Source: Tubulanus polymorphus
Lineage: Eukaryota; Animalia; Nemertea
Reading direction: 5' to 3'
Assembly (NCBI RefSeq): GCF_964204645.1
Contig: NC_134028.1
Span: 21,820,345 to 21,884,344, forward strand
Length of the DNA: 64,000 bases
Made by a program: the position numbers and the translations under genes. The notes under the pieces are model-generated. The model made no database searches. It had not been told where the DNA came from and saw only the letters and a list, made by a program, of their open reading frames with translations. The first letter of the stretch is position 1. The number at the start of each line of letters is the position of its first letter. Of this stretch, positions 20,664 to 47,700 are shown piece after piece.

Positions 20664-21736
20664 TTTCTTACCATCATCATCGCCTGTTGCTTAAAATATC
20701 CTTTACCATTGCCCTGGAAACAGAGAACAACAATCTAGTATTTGACAAGATTTCTTCAAAACTGTGACTGTCTGTGTAGGCCTATTTATTTAAGATTTGA
20801 AAAAAAAACAACAAAGGGCGCCTTCCTTGAATCCTCATTTTGGCTATCAGGCCCTAACTTTTATTCTCTGGGATCGGACAGGGATATTTGTTAGTCCTTT
20901 TAGAGATGTTTACATTCATGTTTACAGTGACAGCGTCAATTTAGCGACCGCCTTATTCGCTAGCTGCTGATCCGGCAAAGAGTTCGATTCCGTGAGGTAG
21001 TAATGACCAATTCAATTCAATTAAGCTTTGTTATCTCCCTTAAGACATTTAATTCTATCTGACAGCAAACGAATGAATACATTAAAGTTGTCCCATTTGG
21101 TAACTAATCGTTTCAGTTTGACTGCAATAGACAATATATGAGGTTTGAAATTATTTTAGAGTTTTGGATTGAAGATATCCGGAAATTAGTGATATCCTTG
21201 AAAAAGCGGACGCTAACTTTAACGTCAGTTTTCATTTCCGGGTTTTTACGGTTTTTAGAAACAGGTTAAACTGCAGCTATGCAGCATGTCCCGTGAGAGG
21301 ACCTGGGGCCTGTGACGGGACAAGGATGTCCCGTCACAGGTCCCGATGGAAAATGAAAACTTTGCATTTCGTAGACGAAATGTCGGAAGAAACTGCACTC
21401 GATTGGTTACTATATACACTCAAAATAATGTTAAGAACATGTTAATAATCGAAATTTGTTCGTAATTTTATTATTTCAGATCAATGATATCATCAAATCG
21501 AAACATTAAATGTAATAATGAAGATCGGATCAAGAGAAGACAGAACCACAGCTATCGAAATTTCAATTTTTAGTGTATAGACTGACTCATACTATCGAAA
21601 ATAAAGTGAATGTATCTTGACAATTTTGGTGCCAATGGTGTTAGTAACCGTTTGTTAAGCGTTACACTGCAAACAAAAGTAAAAGTGGAGGGGGCAACTT
21701 AATGGCCCTAGATCACTCTCGAGAGAGAATTCAAAG

Positions 21737-22099
21737 TGAGGGACCCGATTCAACACACTGTCCCGTGAGAAGACCCGATTCAACTTACTGTCCCGTGAGA
21801 GGACCCGATTTCAAATACTGTCCCGTGAGAGGACCCGATTCAACACACTGTCCCGTGAGAGGGCCCGATTTTAAATACTGTCCCGTGGGAGGACTCGATT
21901 CAACACACTGTCCCGTGAGAGGACCCGATTCAACACACTGTCCCGTGAGAGGGCCCGATTTTAAATACTGTCCCGTGGGAGGACTCGATTCAACACACTG
22001 TCCCGTGAGAGGACCTGATTCAACACACTGTCCCGTGAGAGGACCCGATTTCAAATAATGTCCCGTGAGAGGGCCCGATTCAACACACTGTCCCGTGAG
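21737..22099 (+). repeat. Left subterminal 30-bp tandem array (~12 copies)
   Basis: Unit TGTCCCGTGAGAGGACCCGATT plus 8 variable nt (CAACACAC/TCAAATAC/TTAAATAC/CAACTTAC). Confidence 0.95.
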
Positions 22100-22174
22100 C
22101 CAAAAGTTGTTGAATGAGTATCTTTATGACAAATAGTGAATATTGGTGGAATATTTCTCTATTTTGATTTATAG

Positions 22175-24640
22175 GTATCCGGCGAACGACAGGACCAAGA
22201 CGACGACGTGGACGATGATATTTCAAACGTGAGTCAAAAGTTGTTGAATAAATATCTTTTTGACAAATAGTGAATATTGTTGGAATATTTCTCTATTTTG
22301 ATTTATAGGTGTCCGGCGAACGACAGGACCAAGACGATGACGTGGGCGATGATATTTCAAACGTGAGCCAAAAGTTGTTGCATGAAAACTTCAATGTACA
22401 ATATGAAAAAGTGATCAAATATTGAAAAAAAATATATTTTACTGTATGAAATTACAGGTTTCCGCAGAAGACGGCTGGCTTAGATTGTATGACGACGTCT
22501 TTGATATACAAAATCTCACCGAGGCAGAACAGATTAAAATCAGTATGAAGTTATCACTCAAAGAGTCACATCTCCGTCAGAGTGCAGAGAAAAGGCTTCA
22601 ATCTCTAGTTTCCGAATCCAATCTGAATATTGTGTCGGTCGCGGATGACGGAAGCTGCTTTTTTTGCAGCTGTTGTCGAACAATTGAGGCGAGAAAACGT
22701 TGACATAACAGCACATGAGCTACGATTAATGGCTGTTTCATACCTTTCTGAAAATAGATATTGCGCTGTAAGTAAATTAAAAACCCATTGATATATCAAG
22801 ACAGACTACAATAAATATTATATACACATATTATGGTTTGCTTCGCTGGATGGGGCTGATAAGGCCGACTTTCTGGAGTCTCATCTGACATGGCCATTAT
22901 ATCTTAATAAAATGAGACAAAGAACCACCTGGGCCGATGCTTTAGTTGTCCGTGCCACAGCTGACTGTTAAGGGAGACCAATGGTACTATATACCAGTTC
23001 AGAGCAGTCAAACATCAATATGATAGATCCTGTCGAATGTAAAAATGCTGAACCCATCTTACTAGGGCATATTCAAGATATTCACTACGTTGCCCTAGTA
23101 AAAAGGAGCTATATCCCAAGACGACGCGTGTCAGTCGAGAGTGTCAGAGGGTAACCTTGCGGCCTAACCCACGGAAGACGGTAAGTTGATAGTATATGCC
23201 ACCCCTTCTGACTATTTGGCAAAAATAATACAGCCATCAGAAGCCTTGTTCATGTCAGCTAAGGGTTAATTAATTGAATTTCATAGCGTCAAAGTGACAG
23301 TTACCTCTGAGAACCGCAGAAAAAAAGAAGACGGGTTGTCGATAAAGGAATCTACTGCGTTTGCAAGAAACCAGATGATGGAAGGTAAAGCTTAATTATA
23401 TCATATAAGATCAGGCTGTTGTTTTAAGATTCAGTCGTCATTGTCGAAAAAATCTTTTACCTTCACTTTCACTTTCACTTACCTTCACTTTCAAAATTTT
23501 CTGCATTTGCATTTTAGGAAGTATTTGCAATGCGATGAATGTAGTGGGTGGTTCCATCCGAAATGTATTGGTCTGAACGAAGATACTGTGGAGAAAATTG
23601 ACTATAGATGCGAAACGTGTTTTCAGGTAAGCGATGAACTAAAAAAATATTTTGATCAAATAAGCTATGCCTATATCCTTGCTATGCTATCCTTTTATAC
23701 AATGTGATTGCATTCTTTTTATATAGGTACCTAAACGATTCATTAAGAGTCAGGTATGGAATCCGATACATAATGCATACGAAACTCTTGCCATTTTCCA
23801 CTAGAAAGCAATGAATCAAATGTTTTTCTTTTCGCAGCTTGGCGCGGTTGAATATCACGTTTCTCGTATAATTAATGCCGAGATAAAAGACAAGAGGTAA
23901 ATATTGTACCTTAGTAGAAATCTCGCCAGTTTGTTGAATTTTTCAAACTTTTGTTGATAATATACAATCTTTGGTTTCAGAAGGCCGGAATTCAGGAGAC
24001 ATTTGGACTTGATTAACAAAGACCATGAAAGAGCCGAAAAAGAACTGAAAGGATATGGCTATGGGCTTTTAACTGATGAGGTAAGCATTGATAACAGAAA
24101 ATATGAAATGCGTACAAATAAATGAGCTTTCTTTCGATCATCGTAATATTCAATATTTTAAAGGGCCATGCATATCTCTATAGTGTAATGAAATCATACG
24201 TCAGCCCTACCTTTGCGGACAAATCGTAAGTATATACATGAATCAGACGTGAAGTTTTTTTACTATATTTCGAAATGATAATCAATTCATTTCAATTACA
24301 GGAAACCATATTCAACTCGCTACATGACCCTCCGACAACATCATTCTAAAATGCTGAATTCAGTTTTTAAAGAAGGAAAGACGTAAGTTCATTCTCATCT
24401 TCTATTGCTAATCTCTTAAAAGAATTTCATCCATGTTATATTCATTGTATTAAAATATTTTTCAGGTCAGCAGTAACGTATGTTAATGACGTTTTGCTTA
24501 AAGAGGCCATTTGTTTATTGGTGTCAACCTACCGAAATATCACATACAACGAGGCTGATATTCTTGGAAGAAGAACAGAGGCCAAAAAACTAAAAGATGT
24601 ACAACGACTAATGTCCAAATACTTCTTGCCAGATTATTGA
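22175..24640 (+). pseudogene. Decayed multi-exon cargo gene: acidic mini-exons, UIM-like motif, OTU deubiquitinase domain, PHD finger, helical C-terminus
   Basis: Exons include 22175-22228, 22309-22362, 22458-22767 (EAEQIKISMKLSLKE; VADDGSCFF-AAV with a +1 frameshift in T7 at 22659-22665), ~22845-23180 (YLNKMRQRTTWADALVVRATADC*...ILLGHIQDIHYVAL, stop at 22969), 23287-23384 plus 23518-23626 (YCVCKKPDDGRKYLQCDECSGWFHPKCIG...YRCETC, C4HC3), further small exons, and last exon 24466-24640 ending TGA. Confidence 0.8.
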
Positions 24641-25566
24641 AGAGTGAAGCAGTTTTCGATTCTTAAATGGGAGCTGTTGTAGATTGGTTATCCCGTAATG
24701 ATTGTATTCTATGGAATAAGTTTTCTTGTTGCGATGAATTTTTGGATTGCTAGAGATGGTCTTTGCTGAATTTTGGTAATGGTTTTAATTGGAACCAGAT
24801 TGTGACATGGATGTTTGAATTGTTGAAATGCTGTCCAGTCTTTTAATAGATGTGTGTAGTATATAGCCTATAGAAGTTCTTTGCAATGATGTTTCAGAAG
24901 TTATGAATGATGGTTGAAAGATTCCAGCCGGGGCCGAGATGGTATTGTAAATTGTTGTTAATTAGTGGATCGTTTTATCTGCCTGGTTTGTTGTCGATGT
25001 CTTATGCTGTGTACTACTTCGTGTTAAATATTATTTTTGTATTGTGTCTTAACAGACAAGGGCGTTTTCTGTCATCCAATATGAAATGATAATTTTTGGT
25101 TCAAATTATAATACATCTATCCGGAATTGGGAAATATTGCTGAAGAGTAAAAGGGGAAATATGAAAGAATTGATGATAACCTTTTTTACCGTGTAAAGTA
25201 ATAATTAATAATTAAATGATAAGTAATAATTTAGTTTGGCGACAAAGATTTAGTAATCTAAAATGCTAAATTGATTTCGAATTCCAACGTATGTTGTTTA
25301 TGTTCAAATATGAATAATATAGTCTTCGAATGTAATATGGTTTACAGATTTTGATAAATAAATAACTGAACATAATTTCACATATATACGATTTGTTTTA
25401 TGTTTTAAGGGGACATAGCCAATTTGGCTTTTAGTACGTACATCCAGCCATCATTGTACGCATATTGTTGAAATAATAATTTCTTGTTGTAATTTTTATA
25501 TATGGCAAAAATGCATTATCATTATGAGCATGGGACTCTACATTGACAAAGTGGACAATTTCATTA

Positions 25567-27800
25567 GTCCTCTCACGGGACAGTGTGTTGAACCGAGTCC
25601 TCTCACGTGACATTCTTTGAAACCAGGTCCTCTCACGGAACAGTAAGTTGATTCGGGTCCTCTCACGGGACAGTGTGTTGAATCGGGTCCTCTCACGGGA
25701 CAGTATGTTGAATCGGGTCCTCTCACGGGACATTATTTAAAAGCGGGCCCTCTCACGGGACAGTGTGTTGAATCGGGTCCTCTCACGGGACAGAGTGTTG
25801 AATCGGGCCCTCTCACGTGACATTATTTGAAACCAGGTCCTCTCACGGGACAGTGTGTTGAACCGAGTCCTCTCACGTGACATTCTTTGAAACCAGGTCC
25901 TCTCACGGGACAGTAAGTTGATTCGGGTCCTCTCACGGGACAGTGTGTTGAATCGGGTCCTCTCACGGGACAGTATGTTGAATCGGGTCCTCTCACGGGA
26001 CAGTATTTAAAATAGGGTCCACTTACGGGAAAGTGTGTTGAATCGGGTCCTCTCACGGGACAGTGTGTTGAACCGGGTCCTCTCACGGGACAGTATTTAA
26101 AATCGGGTTCCTTCGCGGGACAGTATTTAAAATAGGGTCCTCTCACGGGACAGTGTGTTGATTCGGGTCCTCTCACGGGACAGTGTGTTGAATCGGGTCC
26201 TCTCACGGGACAGTATTTAAAATAGGGTCCTCTAACGGGACAGTATTTAAAATCGGGTCCTCTCACGGGACAGTGTGTTGAACCGGGTCCTCTCACGTGA
26301 CATTATTTGAAACCAGGTCCTCTCACGGAACAGTAAGTTGATCCGGGTCCTCTCACGGGACATTATTTGAAACCAGGTCCTCTCACGGGACAGTGTGTTG
26401 AACCGAGTCCTCTCACGTGACATTCTTTGAAACCAGGTCCTCTCACGGGACAGTAAGTTGATTCGGGTCCTCTCACGGGACAGTGTGTTGAATCGGGTCC
26501 TCTCACGGGACAGTATGTTGAATCGGGTCCTCTCACGGGACAGTATTTAAAATAGGGTCCACTTACGGGACAGTGTGTTGAATCGGGTCCTCTCACGGGA
26601 CAGTGTGTTGAACCGGGTCCTCTCACGGGACAGTATTTAAAATCGGGTTCCTTCGCGGGACAGTATTTAAAATAGGGTCCTCTCACGGGACAGTGTGTTG
26701 ATTCGGGTCCTCTCACGGGACAGTGTGTTGAATCGGGTCCTCTCACGGGACAGTATTTAAAATAGGGTCCTCTAACGGGACAGTATTTAAAATCGGGTCC
26801 TCTCACGGGACAGTGTGTTGAACCGGGTCCTCTCACGTGACATTATTTGAAACCAGGTCCTCTCACGGAACAGTAAGTTGATCCGGGTCCTCTCACGGGA
26901 CATTATTTGAAACCAGGTCCTCTCACGGGACAGTGTGTTGAATCGGGTCCTCTCACGGGACAGTATTTAAAATCGGGTTCCTTCGCGGGACAGTATTTAA
27001 AATAGGATCCTCTCGCGGGACAGTGTGTTGAATCGGGTCCTCTCACGGGACAGTATTTAAAATCGGGTTCCTTCGCGGGACAGTATTTAAAATAGGGTCC
27101 TTTCACGGGACAGTGTGTTGAACCGGGTCCTCTAACGGGACAGTATTCAAAATCGGGTCCTCTCACGGGACAGTGTGTTGAATCGGGTCCTCTCACGGGA
27201 CAGTATTTAAAATCGGGTTCCTTCACGGGACAGTATTTAAAATAGGGTCCTCTCACGGGACAGTGTGTTGAATCGGGTCCTCTCACGGGACAGTATTTAA
27301 AATAGGGTCCTCTAACGAGACAGTATTCAAAATCGGGTCCTCTCACGGGACAGTGTGTTGAATCGGGCCCTCTCACGTGACATTATTTGAAACCAGGTCC
27401 TCTCACGGGACAGTAAGTTGATTCGGGTCCTCTCACGGGACAGTGTGTTGAATCGGGTCCTCTCACGGGACAGTATTTAAAATCGGGTTCCTTCGCGGGA
27501 CAGTATTTAAAATAGGGCCCTCTCACGGGACAGTGTGTTGAATCGGGTCCTCTCACGGGACAGTATTTAAAATCGGGTTCCTTCGCGGGACAGTATTTAA
27601 AATAGGGTCCTCTCACGGGACAGTGTGTTGAATCGGGTCCTCTCACGGACAGTATTTAAAATCGGGTTCCTTCGCGGGACAGTATTCAAAATCGGGTCCT
27701 CTCACGGAACAGTGTGTTTAATCGGGTCCTCTCACGGGACAGTATCTAAAATCGGGTCCTCTCACGGGACATTGTGTTGAATCGGGACCTCTCACGGGAC
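25567..27800 (-). repeat. Right subterminal 30-bp tandem array (~74 copies), inverted relative to the left array, with a 540-bp higher-order duplication
   Basis: Unit GGGTCCTCTCACGGGACA-GTGTGTTG/GTATTTAA-AATC; 25821-26360 and 26361-26900 are almost identical. Confidence 0.95.
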
Positions 27801-29546
27801 GGTAACTTGAATCGCGGGTTCCGTTGTAAAATCCTGCGTGAAAAACGTGCATTCATATCCCCTATTGTCCCCCTGGCCCTGCAGTAAATTAGAATTTTTC
27901 GGTAGGCCCTTATGTATTTATAAATGAAATCAAAATGGAAAATGTAATAATTACAATCGATAGTTGAATTTATTTATTCATAATCGTTATAGGCAGAATA
28001 CATAAGAATATATAAGGGACTCGAAACCGCTAGCATTGGAATCGACGTTTCATGTAAGAATTCTACATTTGTCCCGTGAGAGGACCCATGTCCCGTCACA
28101 GGCCCGGGTCCTCTCACGGGACGCTGCAGTTAAACTCATATGGGTTTTTACGCACTGGAAGAATAAGTAGGTTAATCTTTTTTATTCCGCGTGTACTGCG
28201 TGTGTCTGATTTTAGTGACAGCTGGTCGTGTTGTATAGTAATTGTTATAGATAATAGAGGGTGAATATTCTAATGAATGCTTTTTTAATGCTACGTATCG
28301 TAACAAGTGCTTCTTTCCATGTTTGTTCCGACCATGTTCAGCCGAAAATTGATAAGATTAGGCCGCCCTCTCTTCTCTTGAAAAAAAAACTAAAGGACGT
28401 AGCGTTATATTTAGTAGTAGGTGTAGTTTAGAATAATTAAGAGTGTAAACTGAGGGTCTCACTCCCTTTTCTGCTATTGTTGTTAATGTTAGGACTAGGT
28501 AGGCTTAGTTTGGGTTTCATTCATCAGTTGCAAAACATACACTCGCCAAATAGAATGTCACTTTTGTTTGAAAAAATCTGATACAATTATATGTACTGCT
28601 TTAAGTCGTGTTTACGACCTTAAATATTTAATTATTAAATTATCCGCGTAAGTAATGAGTAGGCTAGTTAGACTGAATGGTTATTGACCTGCCCTGATTT
28701 ATTCATGTACTACGGTATTACACAGGGTAATATCTCGACAGTAGGCCACTTAGACTTTGACCCTCTTTTTGTACAAAGGTCTGCGTTGAGCCATGTGCTA
28801 GACTGTCAGACTGTTTGATATAGTAGGAGTATGGTACAGTTGACTTGGCAGTGACCCTTATGTGTTATCCGGTTGTAGAGATATATATTTGTTGGTATTT
28901 TACTGTAAGTGACTGTATAGCCTTTATCGACTAGTCCGGTTCCGGCAACAAAAATACTCATTGAATTTGAAAGATGGATCAAGATTAGTGAGTATATATG
29001 TACTACTTCTTTTGGGGGGTACTATTATTTGGGGGTGCAGGGATAGTTGCTCGAGTTTGAAGGATACCGTGGCGTACTAATGATATGATTGTAATTTTTA
29101 CCATGATGTACATGCCCTTATGATTTGTAGTGTGTGATTACTTATTGTGATTCATCTATCAATAGACATTTCATTCTACCAATTTTTGACAGTCCACCTT
29201 CACATGTGATCAGTACTTAACTCGAAATGAATTACAAACACTAGACATTAGACATTTTATCGGCATAGGCCTACTTTCAAAAACAGATATCGTCCACACT
29301 TCAAACCTTACAATGTCAGGTGAACTGAAATTATTGAAAATCAGTAAAAAAATGTGAAGACTGACTTGGAGCATCACGGAATGGTTTGGACCAGTGGTTA
29401 CAATGTTCAACTTTGCGGGATGCCAGGTTGTAGGTTACCGGTAGTGTCCGCAGACAAGACACCGATCCTTGTTAGCTTTCTTCACCCACAGAACTGAATG
29501 TATATGTGACCTGATAGATGACCGAGTGAGCACTATCCGCTACGTT

Positions 29547-29829: not shown

Positions 29830-32800
29830 ATGATGGATATGTTATCGAACATTGATCGTTCTACGGCGATACGCGTAGGTGTCGCTGCTGCTGCTACTAC
29901 GACTGCTGTCGTCGCTGCTGGTTACCTGTTGTCCGACCCGGCTCCGATCGTACCGCCCGTCGATCTGAACTGTCAGTCCGTCGAAATTGAGGTATTAGAT
30001 TTTTTTAATTACCAAATATTCCTACATGGCCCGGTTCCACAGTTGTGAGTTAGCATCAACTCAAAAGGTTAGAATCAGTCCATTTTCGATATTTGAACTC
30101 TATAGAGTCTAGTTTTAACTGTGGAACTGAATCAAACTTAATTCTAATTCTGGCATGGAATTAATCTTGTTTAATGGAAATACGGTACCTACTATTCTTT
30201 AGATTTTTTATTGTCCATTTTTGGGTGTAACTGATTGACTAGGCTCAGAGTTTAGTTGCCAAGCAACACTTTAAATGAGGTTGCATTCTGTTGTTTCAGC
30301 CGGGAGTTCGTGCCTGTCCGCTGACGAAAGAGAAAATAATCGATTATTTATACGAAGATGCACAAACTATGTACGAAGGATTTCAGCGCGGTCTTAGACT
30401 GTCGAGTAAGTCTATTGAAGTATTATCCGTACAAATATTACGGATCCGTTCAAACCCTCAGAGGGTTATTGCATTTCAAACAGGGCTCTACTATGCAAAT
30501 CCATTCAAGCAGAAAGTGTATTTTGTCTTCTCATAACAGTAGACTCAGCCTAAACCGGTACTGGTCTATCCGATAATCCGTTCAATTCGGTAAATTAAAA
30601 ATGATGTCGGTTGTTTGCTACTCTCTTTTCAATACATATATATCGCCAAATCCGGTATCACTTTGCGGTAATCCGCCTCATCCGGTCAAATTTTCACTTC
30701 ATTTGCATACATTCTGTGCCTGAAACGTTAAACCGTAACTGCTCTTCAACTATAATACTGTATTATTAGGCCTATCTCTGTTGCTGATTCATATTAGGCC
30801 CTATGTTACTTACTGCTGCAAAATTGGCCATAGTTTTCATTACACGAGTGCATCATGGGTGAACCGAAATGGAGGAAAGTGTCACAGAATTCCTGAGGAT
30901 CGTAAAATGTCGAGTCACATTGAATGACTTGTTCGATTGTTGCGCTTCTTCAAACCGGTAACCGCCTAATTCAGCGGAAAAACAAAGGTCCCAACTGTAG
31001 TACTGGTTGAGGTGGAGTCTACTGTATAAACCACAAATTGTATCATTTCATGAAATAGAGCGAATACTACTACAGGCTGGCCATAGTGCCTCTGAGGCTC
31101 TGAAGCTGTGTTAACCTGGCGTCGAGACGAATAGTACTATAGGTGTAACTAGTTTATTTGACGCACAAGCTTTCGCTACTAATGTATATGGAAGCTTCAT
31201 CAGGTGAATGAGTCACCTGATGAAGCTACGATGCACTAGTAGCGAAAGCTCATGCGTCAAATAAACTAGTTACACCTATCAAGTACTATTCGTCTCGGTG
31301 TATTTGTAATAATTGAAGTCCGTGAAAATGAGATAGCTGCCGTGTTAAACCCTCAGAAATATGATATGAAATAATGATAGTTTTGAGAAATGAAAAATGA
31401 ATCAAAGAATTCTCATTGAGTTCTATGTATCTTATTTCAGAAGGTGGACCATGTCTCGGGACTCGGTCACAGGAGGGAGGACCTTATGAATGGAAGACGT
31501 ACGAAGACGTCTCTGAGCAGGCTCACGCATTCGGTTCGGCATTAGTAAACATGGGATTGGAACCGAACTCAAATACGTTTATTGGAATTTATGCGCAGAA
31601 TTGCCCTGAGGTAGGTTTAGATACCGACCAGTTTGTTTTATGATGACATAAAATCATCAAATTTACCGTACCATCATGCTACATCACACCGCATTAGCAT
31701 GCCACATCTTGCCATGAAGCGGTGCAGTGTAACATTAGTTACTGTCAGTTACAATTACATTTACAATTTTATTTACACTCCAACCATTCCAATGATATAT
31801 GGAGGAAAAATATTACATATATATACAAATATTCACAAAACAACACTTAAGTGGTAAAGATTTAAAGAATAAAATTGTAACAAATTTATTTATTTATTTT
31901 ATTTTACACTCGCAGCAGTTGACAGGTGCTGCCATCTTTCAAGACAGATTTCGACTGATAAACAATTTTATGGATTTGCACGCACTTTGTTACTGTTAAC
32001 CGTGGCTTATTAGTTAAGGAGTCTGTGAATCTATTTTTTCAGTGGGTTATTGTCGCTGAAGGTTGTAACATGTTTTCCATGGTAACCGTTCCCCTGTACG
32101 ACACGTATGGTCCGGAAGCGTGTTCTTATATCATAAACCACAGTAAGTTCACATCATATTCGGTTAACCCTTTCCGTGCTGACTAAATAATACCCTAAGT
32201 GCTGGAGAAAATGTGAAAATTTGGGAAAATTCCACCCTAGTGTGTTGAATAACGGGAATAGCACTATAGTGCGTCTACACCGTGGTGCGGTGTATCGTTA
32301 GGTACTAATATTTCACTCTGTTTGACTGGTGTTGTCATCTTTGTATACAGATAAAAACTAAAAACTAATTACATCAATACACAGCAGTGCAGTGTACTAG
32401 CAAAATCCATCACCGATTCATACACCGCACTGCGGTGTAGATGCACTGAAAGGGTTAAAACAAGCATCCTGTTCGACTAGTTAACAAGCTGCGAGTTTCC
32501 CTACTCGAGGACGCGAAAATACATTTTACATTTCGATTTCTATAGCCGAAGTTTCGACTGTGATCTGCGACCGAGCTGAAAAGGCTCAACACCTGATTAC
32601 AACTGCTGATAAAACTCGGTGTTTAAAACGAATCATCGTCATCGAAAACGTCACCAATAACAACATACAAGCCGCTGAAGAGCATCACATAGAAGTCGTG
32701 TCGTTATCCGAACTACAGGTAATGACTTAAGTTACGAAGTACGGTCAACCCGCGATATACCGCCCTCCCATATACAGCCACCCCGCCTACCGCCAGGTTT

Positions 32801-35800
32801 TCTCGATGTACATATCTATACAAATACATAATAAAACACCTGTAATCTATTGACTGTAATCCTAAATCATAAAACTTTCGGATGCTAGAAGAAAAAACGC
32901 TCAATTATGCAGAGTCTCTTTAGTATTTCTTCATAATTCTCTTGTCCATGGAAACATATTATGATGTTGTTTATGTTTTTAGGAGGCCGGGCGTAAGAAT
33001 TTGCGAGATCATGTTGTGAGTATTACCGATCCATTTCATTTTCTGTCGGTCCACCAATGTTCCTACTATATTACCGGTTTGTTAAAAAGGTGATCCACTA
33101 ACGCTTGAAATTCTATGATCGCTTCACCATTTTGATTACAGCCGCCAAAACCCGATGATTTAGCCGTGATATGTTACACAAGCGGAACTACTGGTAACTG
33201 GATTTTCATAGCTTCTATTCGATTAGCAGTGCTAATATGTCCCTCCCACCCTATAATGCTGGGAGTAAACTTTGACTAAAACTTTGGGGAATTCTATCGC
33301 AGTGCGGTGTATAATGGTTGTATTGAAATATTGCATCTACCCCGCAGTGCGGTGTATAACTGATATACCGTTGTATTTCATCTACCAGTGCAGTGTGGTA
33401 TATATGGTTGCTGCCATCTTTCAATCGAAATTTTGACTAAAATAACTAATGAATTTATACATCAAACTGCAGGGTTAGACGCATTGGGTGTATTATACAT
33501 TGCACTGAAGGGTTAGACTCAGTGTGGGTGAATTATACACCGCACTAAAGGGTTAGACACAGTTGGTCAATTATACGCTGCACTGAAAGGATTAGACGCA
33601 GTGAAAGGGTTTTAATATCGTGTTTGATATATTTTCTAGGGAATCCAAAAGGTGTAATGCTCAGCCATAAGAATGTAGTAGCAGATGTGTCTGCAACATT
33701 CATGTTATCCGGGGTAAGCTTTCGATAATCTCTTCTTCAACTTCAATAACTGGGTGTTGACAATTCAGGTTTCAGGGGTTCGAATCCTTGTGGTGCCAGA
33801 GGCTCTTGGTCAAAGGCCTTTCTGTCCTCAATCCAGAAAAAGAATCCTTGAACCTGCAAATTTTGGCGCTAGTGGAACCTGCTGAGTAGCGCTCAGTTTG
33901 TTGAGGGGAAATTAAAGAAACCTTTAACCTGATGCCTTTAACCTATCATTTCAGACGGTATTTGAAGCCAACCCGGAACAGATTCACATATCCTACTTGC
34001 CGCTTGCTCACATGTTGGAAAGATGTGTTCACGTACGTTTTGATAGTTTTGAAAATGAAATGAAACGTTAATGAAAATCTTTTCCTTTAAGAATTTCTTC
34101 GTCATTTCTTCAATTTTGTTTTGCGTTGTAGGCATTTTTATTGATGAATGGATGTCGTATCGGATTTTTCCGCGGAGATGTTCGTAAACTGATGGACGAC
34201 ATCAAAGAATTAAAACCGACTTTGTTCGTTACGGTTCCGCGTTTGTTGAACAGAATGTATGATACGGTTAGTTTGATCTTAGTAAACCATGCCTAACTCC
34301 GATTGGTCGGATAAACACTCTTCTTCAAGTCTGAGGAATACGGTGGAGGGTTGATTATAAAAATGAAATCCAAGATATTCATTTTTGGATATGAGCATTT
34401 TGAGCGATATCAACCGCTTTATTTCATTCAGTGACTTCTGAATTGGGTTTTTGTCCTTCAAATTTCAGAATTGCGTGAACTAAACTTTGAACTAAACAGG
34501 CTTAAATAACCATCTCTGATTTATATTGCATCATTAATTTTAGATCAATACTAAAGTCTTGACAACTTGGTACAAGAGGGCATTATTCAACGTAGCATTA
34601 AAACGAAAAGAGGCAGCTCTTCGTAGGTATGGTATTCATGTGCACGTATTTACCGTTTGACCGAGCTTAGATTTAAAAGATCGGTCTTATATTTAGTGAA
34701 TGGATCGATTTAATAGTTTGACATTATGTGAAAAAGATCGTGTTTCACAAGTTGAGAAAACACACAATATCCGTGTAAAATAGATGTGAGAGATGTGTGT
34801 CTGACAATAATTCAGCCTAAGAAGTTCTTGTAGTAGATGGCTTATATATTGAGCAACATTTCAGCTAAAGACTATTACTCATACACTTGATGATGGCTGA
34901 TAGTCTATAGCCGATGATGGTTGATAGAAGCATTGCTCAAATATATAAACCTTTTCTCTGGAACTTTACACCTTTAGCTGAATTATTGTCGGAATTCTTT
35001 CATATATCATGTTTATACATACGTAGACCTATGCATTTTCAGAGGCATTATTCGAAACGACACGATCTGGGATAAACTTGTATTCGGTAAAATTCAAGCC
35101 GGTCTCGGAGGTCGCGTCCAACTCGTCATTACAGGATCGGCTCCGCTTTCCGAGAAGGTGCTCAACTTTTGCCGTTGTTCGTTCGGGTGCCCGGTAAGTA
35201 AAACGATGAAACTCGATTGTATGAAGAAAAAAAAGAGAAGAATTTTCAATTATTCAGAAGATTCCGGCTACTAAGCATCAAACGATTCATATCTTCGACC
35301 AAGTTTCACAGTTGCAACTTTAAGTCCAAAGACGGGGTCTTAAACCAAAAGACTGGTGTTAAGTTGTTATCATATATAGAAAAGACGGATCCAGACTGAA
35401 GCTTGATTATAGAAATAAGATAAGCTTGAATCTATGCCATGACCGTGTATTTGGCCAGGCCCTGATTATTACGCGATGCGATGTCCTGTCATTATCTATA
35501 CTACTCTTATATATATATATCCTACGTAAATGCGCATGTTAATTGACACTAGTTGATCGAGTGTGATTGATTATTGAATATTAAGGTTATTGAGGGTTAC
35601 GGCCAAACCGAGGCATCAGCTGGCGTTACGATTAACGCACCAGGAGATTGTGTGTTGGGTGAGTTGCGCGGAGACGTAATTTTCATCTCTAGTTGTTACT
35701 GTTGCTGCTGCTGCTGGTGTTGTGTTCGTGTGTGACCTTGTTATTTTTCCCCTCGGATCATAGTGGATTCTCTGTTGTATGTGTTGTATGGACAGGCTTT

Positions 35801-38800
35801 GTGGTCGTAGAGAGCCCGGTTCTCTAAGTCCGGCGCACACTTGCTCGGTTTTGCTCGTTTGCCAAGAATTGGATTACTTATTCAACATTTTCGATATCAT
35901 CTCTTGTTTCTAAGTCTGCCTGATTTTTTTTATACGATTGGTAATCATTCTGGCTAGGCGGCCAACACGCGGGAAAGTGTGCACCGGTTATTATTTAGGC
36001 GTAGGTAGAATGCTTGGTGTTTTGCATGTAAATCAGGGCTTCCAGCGCTCCTTCCAAGTACATCTTTGTCCTTCTTTTGGAAAACTGTTTGGACAAACAT
36101 CATCTTTGCCCTTCTTTTTGACTGTAGGTCTTTCCTTGTGATGAAAACGTCCTTCCAAATTTCATTTTCACGTATTTTTCGTGGGGAATTTTGTCGCGAA
36201 TTCAACAGTTAGTTTGATTGGGAATAATAGGAGCTGCAATATGTCTTTTTCTTGGTGGAGGCATTGCAAAAAGCTTCCTTATGGGTACTCATTTTACTGG
36301 AAAGTACTTCTTTCTCAGTCAAAAAGTCCTTCCTTTCGGGTCTGAAATCGCCGAAAAGTACTTCTTAGTACGGTACAGCTTAGAATTAGCTTTACATCAT
36401 TAACGTTTATTTTCCGTTTCGTTTACGTTTAAAAGGGACAATGATCGGCATTTTGGAAAGAAATTTAACGCGTACCGTACATCGTTGTATCGGTTTTAAA
36501 ACGCGTTCTAATCGCGTGTACGATGCGTTTCAAACGGCACGATAAATGAGAACACGACGCGTTCAACGCGCAAACGATGCGCGATTAACGATAAGTTAAT
36601 TCTAAGCTGTACCGTATTTCTTTTTATCCCGGCCTTACCGCTGGAAACCCTGTAAATGTTTCCGCGTATAGAGCTTGTACTGTACACACGATGCACATTC
36701 TCTCTCGCTTGTTGTTGTTATATTTCGTGCGAATGTTGTTGTATATCCGCTGCAGGTGTTAGAGGGTTATGGTCAAACCGAAGCGACTGCTGGTGTTGCG
36801 TTTAACATTCCCGGCGACTCGAACGGCGGTAAGTTCAACACGTAACGTCATTTTAAACGCGTTTTTTCATGCGTGTGCGTTCGTCGATGCAGGTTCTCGA
36901 AGGGTACGGCCAGACGGAGACGACCGGAGCGTGTACGTGTAATGTTCCGTTTGAGATGCAGGCGGGTGAGTGAGTCTGTGCCTGCTGCTACTCTCTCTCT
37001 CCTCAGTTATATCATTGCTGATTCATGCTATACGCCATTATATATGATGTATCTTAATGATATTATATGTGATATTCTGCATGATATGTGGTATGCATGA
37101 TGACAAAAATACGTTCATATAGAGGTCACTTGATATGTGATATAAAGTGTGATATTCATGTACACATGTATTAAGTAATAATATGATATTCATATATAGT
37201 ATTAAAGTTATGATATATGTGATGTTATACACCGGTACGTGATATAATGCGTGATATGGTACTGGTACCTAGAACTTGGTTATATTCGTTCAACATAGCT
37301 TTGGTAAATTACGGAATCGTTGCAGTGGTTTGGTGGTATAAATCACCTCATCTGCGCAATAGGATCAAAAGGAAATTAGCTTGAGAAAACATTTGGTTTC
37401 TAGATCAACTGAAGTAACACGAATGCAGAATCTACTGTATTATGAAAATATTCAGTCAACCCGATTTATTCATATTTTTAAATCAAACTGAAGAATTTTC
37501 GATTGCACTGTGAACATTTTTCCCCTAAGTCAGATTCTTACTAAGTCGGACAAAAATCGCTGTTATCCAAAATAGATCCGACTTCCGCGGGATCGAGTCA
37601 ATTATCTGAAGACATTTTTTGCTACGCGCATATTTCACAGGTCAAGTCGGCTGTCCGATTCCGTGTAATCATTTGAAACTGGTCGACGTTCCCGAAATGG
37701 ATTACTACGCGACCGACGGTAAAGGAGAGGTGTGCGTACGCGGCAGCAACTGTTTCCGCGGCTACTTCAAAGACGAAGCGAAAACGGCGGAAACGATCGA
37801 CGCCGATAACTGGGTTCACACGGGCGACGTCGGAATGTGGCTATCGGTAAGCGTTTTGTTGTATAGTCGTATCTTTAACTCTTTCATTGCATCTGCCCCA
37901 TTTCACGGTCCTGTGCAGTTAGCTCAGTTGGTTGAGTGGAGGAGTGGGAACCGAGAGGTCTATAGTTCGAAACCACCTCTGGCGTTGGCTGTCGAGACAC
38001 ATACATGGACTAAGCTCTGCTAACTTCGTCAGGTTGTGAGCCATAACAACCTATAAACAGGACCTGGCTGTCTCTTAAGACCCACTAGGGTTACATTGTA
38101 ACTAATTGCAGTTGGGACGTAAAACTCTTCTTCTAAACAATAATCCAGATGATAAGACACCTGTTGATACTTACAATTTCTCTTCCGAAGTAAAGTTCAC
38201 TTGATTTTGCTTTTCATTACAGAACGGAACGTTAAAAATTATCGATCGTAAAAAGCATATTTTCAAACTAGCGCAGGTACGTAGTTAATTCTGAGAGATA
38301 ACTATCACTCAACCATTGTGGCATTTTAGATTTATTGTTCAAACTGTCTACGATTACGCTTGTCTACACTACTACAGGATAACTCGCTTAATTCAGATCG
38401 GTTTTATTCAGATTTTCGCTTATTTCGGACTAATAGCCCGGTCCTCTTTAAGTTATTTCTATTCAAATGAGAGCACATGTTATTTCATGTTATTAATCCT
38501 GTATTTTGGTTGTATTGAAAAAAGCCATGTCTTTTTACTGAATTTACTCCATTTTCTCAAAGTTAGTTATCATTACAGAAGGGTTATGCACAGAAAAGAC
38601 TTAGACATTTTAGAATATTTTAGATAATAAGAATTCCTGCTTCATTCCCTTGATGATAGTTGGATATTGAAGTTTTTGAGGGTTTAATTCATTGCAGGGG
38701 GAGTATATCGCACCGGAGAAAATTGAGAATGTTTACGTTAGAAGTAAATTTGCCGCCCAAGTTTTTGTAGATGGTAACAGTTTACAGGTATGTATAAACT

Positions 38801-39891
38801 TTCTCTGTCAGCTGGGATTCAAACCTCATCAAATCAACACTACTTAACACAGTACAGATCCAATGGTCTTGCCACATTTTTGAGGGCATTCTGGTTGTCA
38901 GTGCCATTTAGATAACCCTTTACTCAATTTTCAACGAAAGGGTGTCTACTGGATTGTTGAGGGTCTCATCAACATCTGGTAATACCCCCCGGGATTTACC
39001 CTAATTATCTCAGATTCTACATCTGTGAAGTGTTGTCATACACCACACAACCGGATAGATGCAATGAAAGGGTTAATGAAAGTTTAATAATAACTATTAT
39101 TGATACTTTTAGCCATTCATCGTGTGTATAATTGTTCCTAATGAACACTATCTGGAGGATTGGGCGAAAAAACAAGGAATAGAAGGAAATCTAGCTTCAT
39201 TATGCGAATGTGCGGTAAGCGTCAGAAGAATCGAATGCCTGCGTATTCTTGTTCAAGTTGGTAGACCGAGATCCACTTACATCGTATGAACGCTAATCAT
39301 GATTATTCATCGCTTTTTCCAGAAAGTGAAAGAAGCCGTTCTTAAAGACATCACTGATCTCGGAAAGAAATCTGGATTAAAGAGTTTCGAGCAGGTAAAT
39401 GTGTATTTCTCTGACCGCATAGTACTGTAGTACCACAAGGAAAATGTGTTAGAAGATTAGATTTTTCTTTCTTTGTTGGTTTTAATGAATAAATCTCTTG
39501 AGTCCTCACATGGCCCATACCCCTGAACTCCCAAAACTCACAACACAGAAATGGTTGTCGAAAAGAAATGTAGAAATCAGTCGTCGTTCAAGCCGAGTTG
39601 TAGTTTTCACACATGCCACGGATTTGAACCTGATGGCATCACGAGACTCGTCATGGCACAAAACCCGTGATTATCCCCAGTGTGTAGGTACGTGTGCAAA
39701 ATGACCTCTGCGAAACTATGGAACTGAAGTTTTTATGTATTTATTTGTAACAGGTGCGAGCATTACATCTCTGCGCGGAGCCATTCAGCGTCGAAAACGG
39801 TTTAATGACTCCGACGATGAAATCAAAACGTCCGGCGCTTCGGAAACATTTCCACGATCAAATCGAACGACTATACACGACATCGGCGTAA
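29830..39891 (+). CDS. ACSL: Long-chain-fatty-acid--CoA ligase (ACSL1/5/6-like) with a three-way mutually exclusive exon
   Basis: Exons 29830-29991, 30300-30405, 31441-31610, 32043-32142, 32546-32718, 32983-33015, 33142-33193, 33640-33713, 33955-34032, 34132-34266, 34544-34626, 35043-35193, one of [35586-35658 | 36756-36828 | 36893-36965], 37641-37846, 38223-38276, 38698-38787, 39113-39214, 39323-39394, 39754-39891; phases are continuous. Motifs: [13 protein letters not shown] (P-loop), [10 protein letters not shown] (gate), [62 protein letters not shown]. Confidence 0.95.
30537..31024. mobile_element. Tc1/mariner-type MITE (CAGTAGACTC/GAGTCTACTG TIRs)
   Basis: 10-bp perfect TIR with a TA flank on the right. 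Confidence 0.6.
31123..31297. mobile_element. Palindromic pair of Penelope-like pLTR fragments, each with a minimal hammerhead-like core
   Basis: Arms are reverse complements. The plus arm reads CTGATGA-A-GCTAC(9 nt)GTAGC-GAAA-GCTCATGC-GTC-AAATAAAC (31217-31266). Confidence 0.65.
32168..32454 (-). mobile_element. piggyBac-type MITE, copy 4 (inverted)
   Basis: TTAA TSD; reverse complement of the 9448 subtype. Confidence 0.85.
35586..35658 (+). CDS. ACSL: ACSL mutually exclusive exon A: [24 protein letters not shown](G)
   Basis: AAG|GTT...TGG|GTGAGT, 73 nt, phase 0 to 1; purine-rich, weak acceptor. Confidence 0.85.
36371..36614. mobile_element. Tc1/mariner-type MITE between ACSL exons A and B
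   Basis: TA|CGGTACAGCTTAGAATTA...TAATTCTAAGCTGTACCG|TA; 18-bp perfect TIR and TA TSD. Confidence 0.8.
36756..36828 (+). CDS. ACSL: ACSL mutually exclusive exon B: [24 protein letters not shown](G)
   Basis: CAG|GTG...GCG|GTAAGT, 73 nt, phase 0 to 1. Confidence 0.88.
36893..36965 (+). CDS. ACSL: ACSL mutually exclusive exon C: [24 protein letters not shown](G)
   Basis: CAG|GTT...CGG|GTGAGT, 73 nt, phase 0 to 1. Confidence 0.88.
37908..38125 (+). mobile_element. tRNA-derived SINE
   Basis: A-box TAGCTCAGTTGG, B-box GTTCGAAACC, non-tRNA body ending GGGACGTAAAAC; does not fold as a proper cloverleaf. Confidence 0.6.
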
Positions 39892-43735: not shown

Positions 43736-44707
43736 AAGTGGTCACTGTCTACGTACCTCAATAGACCTTTTTTTACATACACTTTCCACTTTTTGGTGGC
43801 AGGCTAACAGAATAAAATATAAATGTATTCGGTCTTCCCTGACAGAAAGAAGTTGACACAAGTAGATTGCGGTATATTTGTTACTTAAGACGATTTATTT
43901 ATTTTACACATATTCAATTTACAATGTTTTCGAATAATAAGAACAGAAATTCCACATGTACAACCACGCTCGGGTACAAAGTTACAAATATCGAAACTCC
44001 TTCATGCGGTCAATGAGCTTGAAGCTCCGATGCGCTTGCATCCACCATGGACCGATAAATCGTCAAACTAAACCACTGAGACTATTTACAACAGAGTAAA
44101 AAGAGGAGTCTACTGTAATGTAGCTGAAAAGTTGATTTAAGTTAAAACAGGCATATGTGGTATTTGTTCAGGATCCCTATTGATCAGTTACTCTTGGATA
44201 TAAGGAGTTTTCAGAAGAAAATTTCGTGGAAGTGTCCGCATCACTTTCATATCCCAATTACAATAGACTCCTACTGTTTATCTCGGTAAACTATAAATTC
44301 AGTAGTTTTATATGCAAATTCTTATCCTTTACACTACCTAAACTTGGATTCTAATAAATTTGGTAAAAAATCCAGGTCCCAGAATAAATATAGGCATTGT
44401 TCACTGTTGTTTCCCTACTTCTCAAAATTGAAGGAGTTTTAAAAGAGTTTTTCATTCAAGTTAAAGGAGTTTCAAGCCCCTTATAAACATTTTCTGTTCA
44501 GAAGAGGATTTCAAGGAGTCGTAGGGACTGTGTTTTAATTCAAGTAATGTTCTCGGTGACCGAGTCCTGTATTTAATACATGCGGTCGCAGTTCATGCGC
44601 CGTACATTAAAAAACAAGTCAAATGAAAATGATCGATGGCTTAAAAACGAAATGACTAAAATGCTTTTCTTCGGTCTCCGTTTCTGCATTCAACGCTTTA
44701 ATATTCG

Positions 44708-47700
44708 TCAACGCGAGGACGACGACGAACTCGAGCTCGATCGACTGTAGCGCCGTCTTCTGGCTGGAGAACGCGATCCTGATCGCTGTCGACGGGGACT
44801 ACGACTTCTTCTACGAGGAGGCGACCTAAACAACGAAATATGATTTCCATTTCATTCACTATGCAACTACTGCAAATGTGATAACGTCATCGCAGCCTAC
44901 TTGATCAAATATTGCAAAAGCAGACTCTACTTCAACCAGATTTTCATCTTATTTTTGTTTACGCCCCAGTATTTCTTGTATCAAATGTAATATGTATGGA
45001 TCCGATAAACCGGTCATTGTTTTATAGAGAATCCCACACTAATATAACGAAAGATGAAGTCCGAAAAGTTTTTGCTTCAGCTATAAATTTATTTATCCGA
45101 TGTTTCGACTATATCCTAATAGTCATCTTCAGGAATAGTCATCTTCATTCCTGAAGATGACTATTTAGATGATTTAGTCGAAACGTGGGATAAATGAATT
45201 TATAGCTGAAAGAAGAACTTTTCAGATTTTATCTTCCGCTTTGTTAGTGTGGGATTCTCTTAAACCCTTTCAGTGCGTCTACACCACAGTGCGGTGTACG
45301 AATCAGTGATGGATTTTGCTAGTACACCGCACTGCGGTGTATTGATATAATTAGTAATTACTAATTATCTCTCTTGAAAGATGGCAGCACCTGTCAAACA
45401 TAGTGAAATATTAGTCACTAACGATACACCGCGCCGCGGTGTAGACGCACTAGTGCTATTCCCGTTATTCAACACACTAGGGTGGAATTTTTCAGAATTT
45501 TCAAATTATCTTCAGCACTATAGGGTATTAATTAGCCACCACTGAAAGGGTTAATAAGGTCACAACACAGAATAGTGTTTCATCAACTGGTAAATCAGTT
45601 GTTTCATTTCAGCAGACAGTATTTTCACGATTCAACTAGTCTTACCTTCGTCGTGGGCCGCCTCTGTCGCCACCGGGTCCACCGCCAAACCGCGGCGGCG
45701 AGTTGCGCCCCCATCTCGGAGGCGGGCCACGTCTCATCGGAGACCGGCGCGGGGGTGGTCTAGGCGATGGTCGGCGAACCAATACGGCGGCAGCTGTCAC
45801 TTCCTGACCATCTATCTGACCTGAAATCAATTGATTGAAAGTTTTAGCTTACCAGTTAGCAATCCAGAGGGTCTTACGAGACTTTCTAACCGGGTGGCCA
45901 CTTTCCGCCTATGAAAGTTTTCCCTGATTTTTTCTGTTTTTTTCCCATGTGATTGCGCGCGAAATTCCCGGAGCGAATCAGGGACATTTACTGCGTTTAA
46001 ACAGTTACAATTCATTCGTTTTTGAACATTGAATCACGTATAGATAAAACAAACAGGCGGTTCATAGCATTATCCGAATAACCCGAGTTTTCGAATGTTT
46101 TTTGGGTAAAATTTGTCTAATTCCCTGATTTTTTGATCTCCTGAGTTTCCCAAGTTTTCCAGGTCAGTGGCCACCTTGTCTTAGAGCCTCACATTGAGCG
46201 CCCTGCCCCAGTACACTGACAGCAGTACATCGTACATACCTCCGTCCATATATTTGATAGCTTTCGTAGCGTCTTCAGGTTTACCGTATTCGATATAAGC
46301 GAAACCTTTGCTGATTTCGTTGTGAATTCGATCCATCGGGAACTCGATCGATTTAATCACTCCATAAACGGAGAATATCTCCTGTAAATGATCTTTGTTG
46401 ACGTTACGCGTCAGACGTCCGACGTGGACTTTACACGGTTTTGGTGGAGTCGGCGCTCTCTTCCGTCGTGGACTTCTACAGTTACAAACACAATTAAACA
46501 ATGAAATTGTCCCAGTTGTAAGTGTGCCGATAAAATGTCTAATGTCCGGGGTGTTTGTAGTTCATTTTCATTTCAAAAATATCTCAGGTAAAATACTGAA
46601 CACATTTGAAGGGTGGACGATCAGTTTTTGAAAGATTGCTAATGTCTTATGTTTGTAGTTTTTCATTTTCAAGGAAATATCCCAAGTTCTGAACACATGT
46701 GAAGTGTGGACGATCAAAATAAGAATGATCAAGAGGCGTTTTTAACAAAACTGAATCTTTGTAAAAATCGTTTCAAGTTTCACGTTTACGGCGCGTGGTT
46801 AAGTGAATCCGATTTAGTAAATCAACTCGTTAATGGACAAGGTTTATTAATTGTGATTTATTAAATCGCCACTAACTTGCTCACCGAGCAAGTTAGTCAG
46901 CTAAATCCAACATGGCATTCTCTTCGAACGCGGGCCTAAGACATTATCGCAGACCATCATCTGTCAATAATTCAGTCACCATTGACGCCCATTTTCTTTT
47001 GAATCACGACCTTTATGATTCGACTCGTTTACGTTGGTTTTCCGTACCCATTTCCAACATCGAATCGAATTTAGCTAAATCAATCGGATTCAATTTCGTA
47101 AAAGCGCTTCAGATAAACAGCAATGAATTGAATGCAACAGGTGCAGAGTTCAGGCTGCACGTGAATCACCATTTTGAATATAATTACCTGGATTTCTTTC
47201 TCGGAGATCCGCGTCCTCTACTTCTAGAAGACGATGAACTACTACCCGAACTACTCCCCGAACTACCACTGCTAGAACTACTACTGGACGAGCTGTACGA
47301 TCCGGAACGAGCTCGGGATCTCGACGTCGATGAGCTACTGCTGCCCGACGAGCTGCTACTCGACGCGCGTTTCTTTCGATCTCGTCCCGCACGTTCGGCT
47401 CTCTTCGGACGCTCGCGACTACGACTGGTGCTTCGAGCCCTAAACGCGATTAACAAGACAACATGGATTAAAGATCAAATCTATTCACACACGCCCCGAA
47501 CATCTTGTACTAAAAATTATCTATAACAATTTGGGTTTCCATAGACAATTTACAGTCAATATTTGAATTGAAGAATCCACGGTTACTGAGAAAAAAACGA
47601 AAAGTGTGGTTTACCTTGAAAGCTAGAGGTTGTTTGGAACAAGGGCATTGCTTGAAAAATCTTTTTAATTCGCGACTTCAAAGTTCCACAAGTTTATTTT

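What the first reader, a model, noticed from the sequence alone, without database searches (positions are those of the whole stretch)
35586..36965. Three mutually exclusive exons swap the adenylate/substrate-pocket strand of an acyl-CoA synthetase
Seen: three homologous 73-nt exons with intact GT-AG sites and identical phase encode [48 protein letters not shown] and [24 protein letters not shown]. The EGYGQTE codons differ at synonymous positions while the amino acids are invariant, which indicates purifying selection on all three. Including 0, 2 or 3 exons frameshifts, and the B-C intron is only 64 nt, shorter than any constitutive intron mapped here (minimum 73). Established: YGxTE is the A5 adenine-binding motif of ANL-superfamily enzymes, and the residues just after it line the substrate pocket (GrsA specificity-code positions 330/331). 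The known vertebrate ACSL1/ACSL6 mutually exclusive exons affect the gate motif, which is single-copy here (33955-34032). Inference: an independently evolved splicing switch giving three enzymes with different fatty-acid preference from one gene. I am not aware of a description of it, but cannot check.
Basis: partly seen in the sequence, partly recalled or inferred. Interest (0 to 1): 0.85.

Follow-up and report, generated by a model that had tools for sequence, protein, structure and literature searches.

The report
Swappable pocket exons in ribbon-worm ACSL
A ribbon-worm gene for a fat-activating enzyme carries three old copies of one short exon, two of which are spliced in as either/or alternatives; the swap likely tunes which fatty acids the enzyme accepts, but that and the use of the third copy are untested.

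Summary
Real. The gene is a Tubulanus polymorphus (nemertean) ACSL1/5/6-type acyl-CoA synthetase with three homologous 73-nt exons, A, B and C, encoding the YGQTE motif and the following strand. Spliced contigs of one run join the flanking exons through A and through B, with no A-B, skip or C joint. RefSeq already lists A and B as isoforms X2 and X1. C is unannotated and unseen, but keeps the motif at saturated synonymous divergence and has intact splice sites, so it is probably used somewhere. Any other exon count gives a premature stop. The best A/B candidate is I460F, which maps by spacing to a modelled ACSL4 tunnel residue. Altered fatty-acid preference is untested. No such swap appeared in 20 other clusters, Lineus included. 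It parallels, but is not, the vertebrate ACSL1/6 gate-exon switch. The scan had not noted this locus; it noted a similar triple exon in an arthropod FATP.

The parts
29830..39891 (+). Coding span (from the Met of RefSeq isoform X3 to the stop) of a long-chain acyl-CoA synthetase of the ACSL1/5/6 type, 19 coding exons per transcript in this model
   Evidence: Exon model translates to P0001/P0009/P0010 exactly; PF00501 E 5.5e-92; named XP_074647227-230, Tubulanus polymorphus
33955..34032 (+). Gate-motif exon (78 nt, YLPLAH), single copy
   Evidence: One motif hit in six frames and no second tblastn copy; a single spliced contig runs through it unbroken (record 17, length matches model)
35043..35193 (+). 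Constitutive exon upstream of the cluster (ends in phase 0)
   Evidence: joined to A and to B in run X3
35586..35658 (+). Alternative exon A, residues 445-468, used; weak acceptor
   Evidence: Joints on both sides in X3; RefSeq isoform X2 = P0001; acceptor score -1.9, lower than 16 of 17 constitutive acceptors
36756..36828 (+). Alternative exon B, used; closest to mollusc orthologues (up to 19 of 24 identical), so likely nearest the ancestral form
   Evidence: Joints on both sides in X3; RefSeq isoforms X1, X3
36829..36892 (+). 64-nt B-C intron; a branch-point-like TTCAT lies 41 nt from the B donor and 23 nt from the C acceptor
   Evidence: steric exclusion is inferred from the <50 nt rule used for human clusters (PMC5740500, passage)
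36893..36965 (+). Candidate alternative exon C, unannotated, use not observed; the most diverged copy (T454, G456, A457, C458, C460, F464)
   Evidence: Intact AG/GT with scores inside the constitutive range; 5 private synonymous vs 2 private replacement codons; profile score above 40 of 112 homologues; no joint in X3
37641..37846 (+). Constitutive exon downstream of the cluster (starts in phase 1)
   Evidence: joined from A and from B in X3

Best explanation
This is an old tandem triplication of the exon that encodes the adenine-binding YGQTE motif and the next strand of a nemertean long-chain acyl-CoA synthetase; copies A and B are spliced in one at a time, copy C is likely a rarer third choice, and the swap likely tunes the acyl-chain tunnel while leaving ATP chemistry unchanged. 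Shown: anatomy, reading frames, A and B joints. Inferred: transcripts with 0, 2 or 3 copies are removed by nonsense-mediated decay; B and C are also kept apart by the 64-nt intron; the residue most likely to matter between A and B is 460 (Ile, Phe; Cys in C), and C further changes the pocket entrance at 456/457. Untested: tissue or stage control of the choice, and any kinetic difference.
For: Four GT-AG joints, up-A, up-B, A-down, B-down, and no other joint in X3. RefSeq X1/X2 differ at 8 residues, all inside this exon. All 5 non-single combinations give early stops. Motif residues kept at saturated synonymous divergence; on the C branch alone 4 of 4 private changes in codons 1-9 are synonymous (p about 0.003 by site counts). 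AlphaFold model of the A form (mean pLDDT 92; 91-96 over residues 441-470) gives strand 445-450, helix 452-454, strand 457-460, loop 461-472 in an ANL fold. Precedent that this segment sets substrate fit in relatives: CG6178 344-347 / luciferase 345-348 (PMC10327219, passages; luciferase 347 = 456 and 351 = 460 by an ungapped but weak alignment, E 1); Nt4CL2 Gly339-Leu342 (PMC13341628, one passage); T. thermophilus Y324, G325, T327 contact myristoyl (PMC6122825, passages). An ACSL4 model lists V477 in the lipophilic tunnel (PMC12051732, passages); with the 25-residue spacing found in 271 of 271 proteins where both motifs were located (306 held) V477 maps to 460, assuming from recall that ACSL4 G443 lies in its GGAP motif.
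Against: No joint, database isoform or orthologue uses C. A and B are the same at 456/457, and 3 of their 8 differences lie in the most variable loop columns 466-468 (entropy 2.9-3.7 bits). The copies are about as alike (11-16 of 24) as homologues from different species (median 12 of 24), which drift could produce. C carries rare residues (F464 in 1 of 112, M466 in 1 of 112; the G456-A457 pair in none). The Lineus orthologue has no annotated alternative here (2 of 2 isoforms differ only at the N-terminus). RNA support is one run, contigs only, with 27 letters on the shorter side of each joint, under the tool's 31-letter guide, and RefSeq may rest on the same data. No animal ACSL1/5/6 structure was among the PDB matches and I had no model coordinates, so tunnel contacts are transferred, not measured.
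Confidence: 0.55

Rival explanations
1. The exons are mutually exclusive but the enzymes are nearly equivalent. The copies are kept because each has taken over part of the splicing programme, or because mis-choice feeds decay and sets enzyme dose; the amino-acid differences are mostly drift in tolerant columns.
For: A and B identical at 456/457; differences concentrate in high-entropy columns and match between-species divergence; in X3 the introns around the cluster appear as long unspliced contigs while single contigs run spliced and unbroken through the flanking constitutive junctions (records 17-21), a hint of slow or regulated splicing here.
Against: I460F and T459A (Ala in 2 of 112 homologues) sit on the pocket strand; single changes in this segment alter substrate use in related enzymes.
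Confidence: 0.3
2. It is a two-way switch. Exon C was once used but is now a silent or dying copy, blocked by its closeness to the strong B donor.
For: No C joint in X3; none of 3 cluster members uses C; lowest profile score of the three and rare residues; no C-like relative among 50%-identity representatives (3 hits, all unrelated repeats).
Against: Intact frame and splice sites scoring above A's; private changes mostly synonymous; C460 is shared with the Lineus orthologue and Lingula (3 of 112 homologues); a second individual has 0 differences over 36801-37008 against 31 in about 1,690 neighbouring intronic bases (my arithmetic gives p about 0.04 for the 180 non-B bases, post hoc, weak). One run, and contigs drop rare forms.
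Confidence: 0.3
3. Assembly or annotation artefact (collapsed paralogues or haplotypes).
For: A paralogue exists in the same species (P0064).
Against: Contigs of X1 match the window with 0 differences across A and across B-C; the other sample shows the same exons and exact joints; only this exon is repeated; the paralogue's segment is different (9-12 of 24).
Confidence: 0.01

Closest known systems
Vertebrate ACSL1/ACSL6 F-gate/Y-gate mutually exclusive exon pair (PMC1543647, first quarter of the text read; PMC4494069, passages)
   Same: Same enzyme subfamily; a duplicated short internal exon encoding part of the fatty-acid pocket, included one at a time.
   Different: Different exon (adenine motif and following strand, not the gate); three copies, not two; 73 nt so that mis-inclusion shifts the frame, whereas the gate exons encode 26 residues and skipped forms exist; gate exon is single here; seen so far in one species, not across jawed vertebrates.
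Mutually exclusive exon clusters born by tandem exon duplication (PMC5740500, passages)
   Same: Homologous, equal-length, same-phase exons; length not divisible by three (60% of human clusters in that paper); possible steric block by a short intron (9%).
   Different: Nothing in the mechanism is new; no docking/selector pairing was found. The protein position is the new part.
RefSeq isoforms XP_074647227-230 of Tubulanus polymorphus
   Same: This gene; X2 carries A, X1 and X3 carry B.
   Different: Exon C is absent from all 3 distinct sequences held; no functional comment.
Substrate-pocket segment after YGxTE in ANL enzymes (CG6178/luciferase, 4CL, T. thermophilus LC-FACS)
   Same: Same structural element, known to set substrate fit.
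   Different: There it varies between genes or by engineering; here it is exchanged by splicing within one gene.

Membership tests
ANL-superfamily long-chain acyl-CoA synthetase, ACSL1/5/6 group | AMP-binding domain and ANL fold | tested here: met
   PF00501 308 bits vs cut-off 29.9; Foldseek E 1e-43 to 1e-31, VIA Z 37.5-40 incl. 1v26 Z 37.5, rmsd 3.7, 477 aligned
ANL-superfamily long-chain acyl-CoA synthetase, ACSL1/5/6 group | P-loop, adenine (A5) motif, DRxK linker | tested here: met
   All present in P0001; T266-K274, E447, G450, E453, D545, R546 invariant in 113 aligned sequences
ANL-superfamily long-chain acyl-CoA synthetase, ACSL1/5/6 group | Gate motif D-x4-(Y/F)-LPLAH-x2-E | tested here: inconclusive
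   Y-LPLAH-x2-E present, but Gln stands in place of the leading Asp, as in the Lineus orthologue
ANL-superfamily long-chain acyl-CoA synthetase, ACSL1/5/6 group | Groups with animal ACSL1/5/6-like proteins | tested here: met
   Best hits are animal ACSL1/5/6-named proteins; sister to Lineus at SH-aLRT 98 in a quick 49-row tree (careful search unfinished; no ACSL3/4 rows)
ANL-superfamily long-chain acyl-CoA synthetase, ACSL1/5/6 group | Activates long-chain fatty acids to CoA esters | not testable with these tools
   Needs an enzyme assay
Mutually exclusive exon cluster from tandem duplication | Adjacent homologous exons of equal length and phase with splice sites | tested here: met
Mutually exclusive exon cluster from tandem duplication | Each member joined to both constitutive neighbours (A and B) | tested here: met
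   4 joints in X3; RefSeq isoforms
Mutually exclusive exon cluster from tandem duplication | Each member joined to both constitutive neighbours (C) | tested here: inconclusive
   No C joint in the one spliced run; contigs show presence, not absence
Mutually exclusive exon cluster from tandem duplication | No productive double inclusion or skipping | tested here: met
   5 of 5 non-single combinations stop early; no such joint among the 4 listed
Vertebrate ACSL1/ACSL6 gate-exon switch | Two copies of the gate exon (F and Y forms) | tested here: not met
   Single gate exon in the window
Docking/selector-controlled clusters (Dscam type; name recalled) | Competing base pairing between one docking site and selectors beside each exon | tested here: inconclusive
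   13 region pairs, best z -1.9 against 12 shuffles each; no orthologous DNA to test conservation

The most novel reading that the evidence does not exclude
A second, independently evolved splicing switch in the ACSL family that swaps a different wall of the fatty-acid tunnel from the vertebrate gate switch: one nemertean gene makes three enzymes, the unannotated C form being tissue- or stage-restricted, whose chain-length or unsaturation preferences differ through residues 456, 457 and 460. It would be a natural three-allele experiment on ACSL specificity.
Probability: 0.3. Interest if true: 0.58.

Novelty: new variant of a known kind. Interest (0 to 1): 0.36.

Why it matters
What sets acyl-chain preference among ACSL enzymes is poorly resolved, and no animal ACSL1/5/6 structure was among the PDB matches. 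Three natural versions of one 24-residue pocket segment on an identical scaffold are a clean test set, and I460F is a one-residue prediction. It would also show convergence: the same family evolving exon swapping at two different pocket elements. The splicing mechanism itself is textbook, two of the three forms are already annotated, and the cluster is so far known from one species, which limits the weight.

Tried and rejected
No whole genome was held, so orthologous genomic DNA could not be searched; conservation was tested only through annotated proteins. No RNA holder was listed by record; X3 was read as RNA because its contigs skip introns exactly (1051 nt expected, 1051 seen); X2 and X4 showed no spliced pieces among those listed. 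Absence of C joints in X3 is not evidence of silence. 20 clusters of other animals were opened (15 of 113 members listed in one, 2 of 3 in two, 4 of 5 in one): no whole-exon swap, only one- or two-residue differences between species or alleles. Only 2 of 303 stored proteins carry two motif copies, both Phallusia, as part of a much longer repeated block, so not this cluster. A search of 1.84 billion representatives with exon C gave 3 hits, all unrelated repeat proteins. A pattern for tandem 73-nt motif exons 40-100 nt apart found 0 in metagenome contigs (narrow pattern, few animal contigs expected). No docking/selector signal. Exon C's likeness to luciferase TETT-x-A (E 1) is not taken as a sign of light chemistry. 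Gene models had two boundary errors, fixed; their profile and tblastn results do not depend on them. Paper searches that found no description of this cluster: acyl-CoA synthetase + mutually exclusive exons (24 listed, judged by listing; two opened), Tubulanus + alternative splicing (3), mutually exclusive splicing + tandem exon duplication + Lophotrochozoa (1), ACSL + mutually exclusive + exon + nemertean (0). ACSL4 + YGLTE gave 0 and the alignment in the ACSL4 paper's supplement is a picture, so the V477 mapping rests on spacing. The original T. thermophilus, GrsA and carboxylic acid reductase structure papers were not held. PMC10020447, PMC7555964 and bioRxiv 2024.10.29.620959 (passages) added only the A5 motif definition.
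Full report
Observation. They hold the only three YGxTE-type motifs in the window, and tblastn of the whole protein finds extra copies of no other exon, the gate exon included. Synonymous sites are saturated between all pairs (pS 0.71-0.93 over 24 codons) while the first nine codons have pN 0.05-0.07; flanking introns show no alignable likeness. The duplication is therefore old and the motif was held by selection.

Identity. The downstream exon matches at 100% a RefSeq protein of the nemertean Tubulanus polymorphus, long-chain-fatty-acid--CoA ligase 1-like. Its cluster has 3 distinct sequences: X2 with exon A, X1 and X3 with exon B, none with C. My exon model reproduces them exactly; with C it gives a full 683-residue frame; with no exon or with two or three it stops after 450 or 479 residues, at least 488 nt before the last junction. 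The protein is an ANL-fold AMP-binding enzyme and is sister to the Lineus longissimus protein in a quick tree (SH-aLRT 98).

Expression. Four runs of one study hold the stretch, none recorded as RNA. X1 matches the window without differences and unspliced; X3 has contigs that skip introns exactly. In X3 one contig ends at the cluster's 5' edge and another begins at its 3' edge, and four GT-AG joints fill the gap: upstream-A, upstream-B, A-downstream, B-downstream (contig depths 16.8, 41.8, 20.7, 23.7; not expression levels). No A-B, B-C, skip or C joint is listed. The joints have 27 letters on the short side, below the tool's 31-letter guide, but fall on the predicted sites and agree with RefSeq, which may use the same data. 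So A and B are used alternatively; C is unobserved in one sample.

Is C alive? For: splice sites score 4.8 and 8.7, inside the constitutive range and above A's acceptor at -1.9. Where A and B share a codon and C differs, 5 changes are synonymous and 2 replace a residue; in the motif 4 of 4 are synonymous. Its profile score beats 40 of 112 real homologues. Its Cys460 is shared with Lineus and Lingula (3 of 112). The second individual shows no difference over 36801-37008 while nearby intron differs at about 1.8% (weak, post hoc). Against: no transcript or database support, and rare residues F464 and M466. I put its use at about 0.65.

Conservation. In 20 clusters from other animals, including Lineus, Lingula, Owenia, oysters, amphioxus, Ciona and Nematostella, no isoform pair swaps this exon (some clusters read in part). 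Annotation can miss such exons, as it misses C here, and no genomic DNA of relatives was available. The cluster is so far known only from this species.

What the swap changes. In the model the exon builds strand 445-450, a short helix, strand 457-460 and a loop. The motif residues that bind adenine, phosphate and Mg (Y324, T327, E328 in the T. thermophilus enzyme, PMC6122825 passages) are the same in all copies, so ATP chemistry should be unchanged. The following residues set substrate fit in related enzymes (CG6178 and luciferase, PMC10327219 passages; Nt4CL2 339-342, PMC13341628 passage). A and B differ at 446, 455, 459, 460, 462 and 466-468. Position 460 (Ile, Phe, Cys) corresponds by constant spacing to V477, listed in the lipophilic tunnel of a docked ACSL4 model (PMC12051732 passages); this transfer uses my recall of the ACSL4 motif and is an inference. 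An Ile-to-Phe change deep in the tunnel could shift chain-length or unsaturation preference. Against this, the copies differ about as much as homologues from different species, so drift is a live rival.

How exclusion works. Frame: shown by computation for all five wrong combinations; decay is inferred. Steric: the B-C intron is 64 nt, shorter than the gene's other introns (99 or more) and two neighbours' (78), with a branch-like site 41 nt from the donor, under the 50-nt rule used for human clusters (PMC5740500 passages); whether that rule holds in a nemertean is unknown. No docking/selector pairing was detected.

Comparison. It works like the vertebrate ACSL1/ACSL6 gate-exon pair (PMC1543647, first quarter read; PMC4494069 passages) but is not a member: the gate exon is single here and a different exon is repeated. 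It is a member of the textbook class of tandem-duplication clusters for A and B. Four paper searches found no description; subscription journals are largely not covered. The scan's notes hold nothing on this locus but list a three-copy pocket exon in an arthropod FATP and a two-copy catalytic exon in an urchin acyltransferase (unchecked).

Verdict. A real, old, apparently lineage-restricted cluster at a new position in a known enzyme family; two forms already annotated, the third new but unproven, the functional effect plausible and directly testable. New variant of a known kind, interest 0.36.

Noticed in passing
window 35194-37640, run X3: The introns around the cluster appear as long unspliced contigs (35173-35614, 35631-36325, 36801-37669) while single contigs run spliced and unbroken through the constitutive junctions on either side: a hint that these introns are removed slowly or retained.
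   Followed up: partly
window 36369-36616: 24-nt inverted repeat arms (96% complementary) 200 nt apart in the A-B intron, in a high-depth repeat stretch; looks like a small inserted element. X3 has no cover there.
   Followed up: no
P0011, P0012 (Phallusia mammillata): Both proteins repeat a block of about 120-145 residues that includes the YGQTE motif with different downstream residues; in P0012 the repeat starts at the position of this exon's first codon. Could be chimeric assembly of tandem genes or a multi-exon cassette.
   Followed up: partly
window 21736-27814: Two arrays of a 30-nt unit in opposite orientation (12 and 75 copies) flank a fragmented multi-exon coding region (OTU-like and PHD-like motifs by eye, not tested): possibly a transposon with long repeat arms just upstream of the ACSL gene.
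   Followed up: no
window 16486-16953 (-) and 60159-60611 (-): Neighbouring genes: a TRPM-type channel (PF18139) and a ligand-gated ion-channel subunit (PF02931), each with a 78-nt in-frame read-through intron. An RS-rich protein gene lies on the minus strand near 44700-47500.
   Followed up: partly
window 28974-28987: A short upstream coding piece supplies the five extra N-terminal residues of RefSeq X1/X2 over X3 (read, compared).
   Followed up: partly
window 33955-34032: The gate consensus Asp is Gln in both nemertean orthologues.
   Followed up: no
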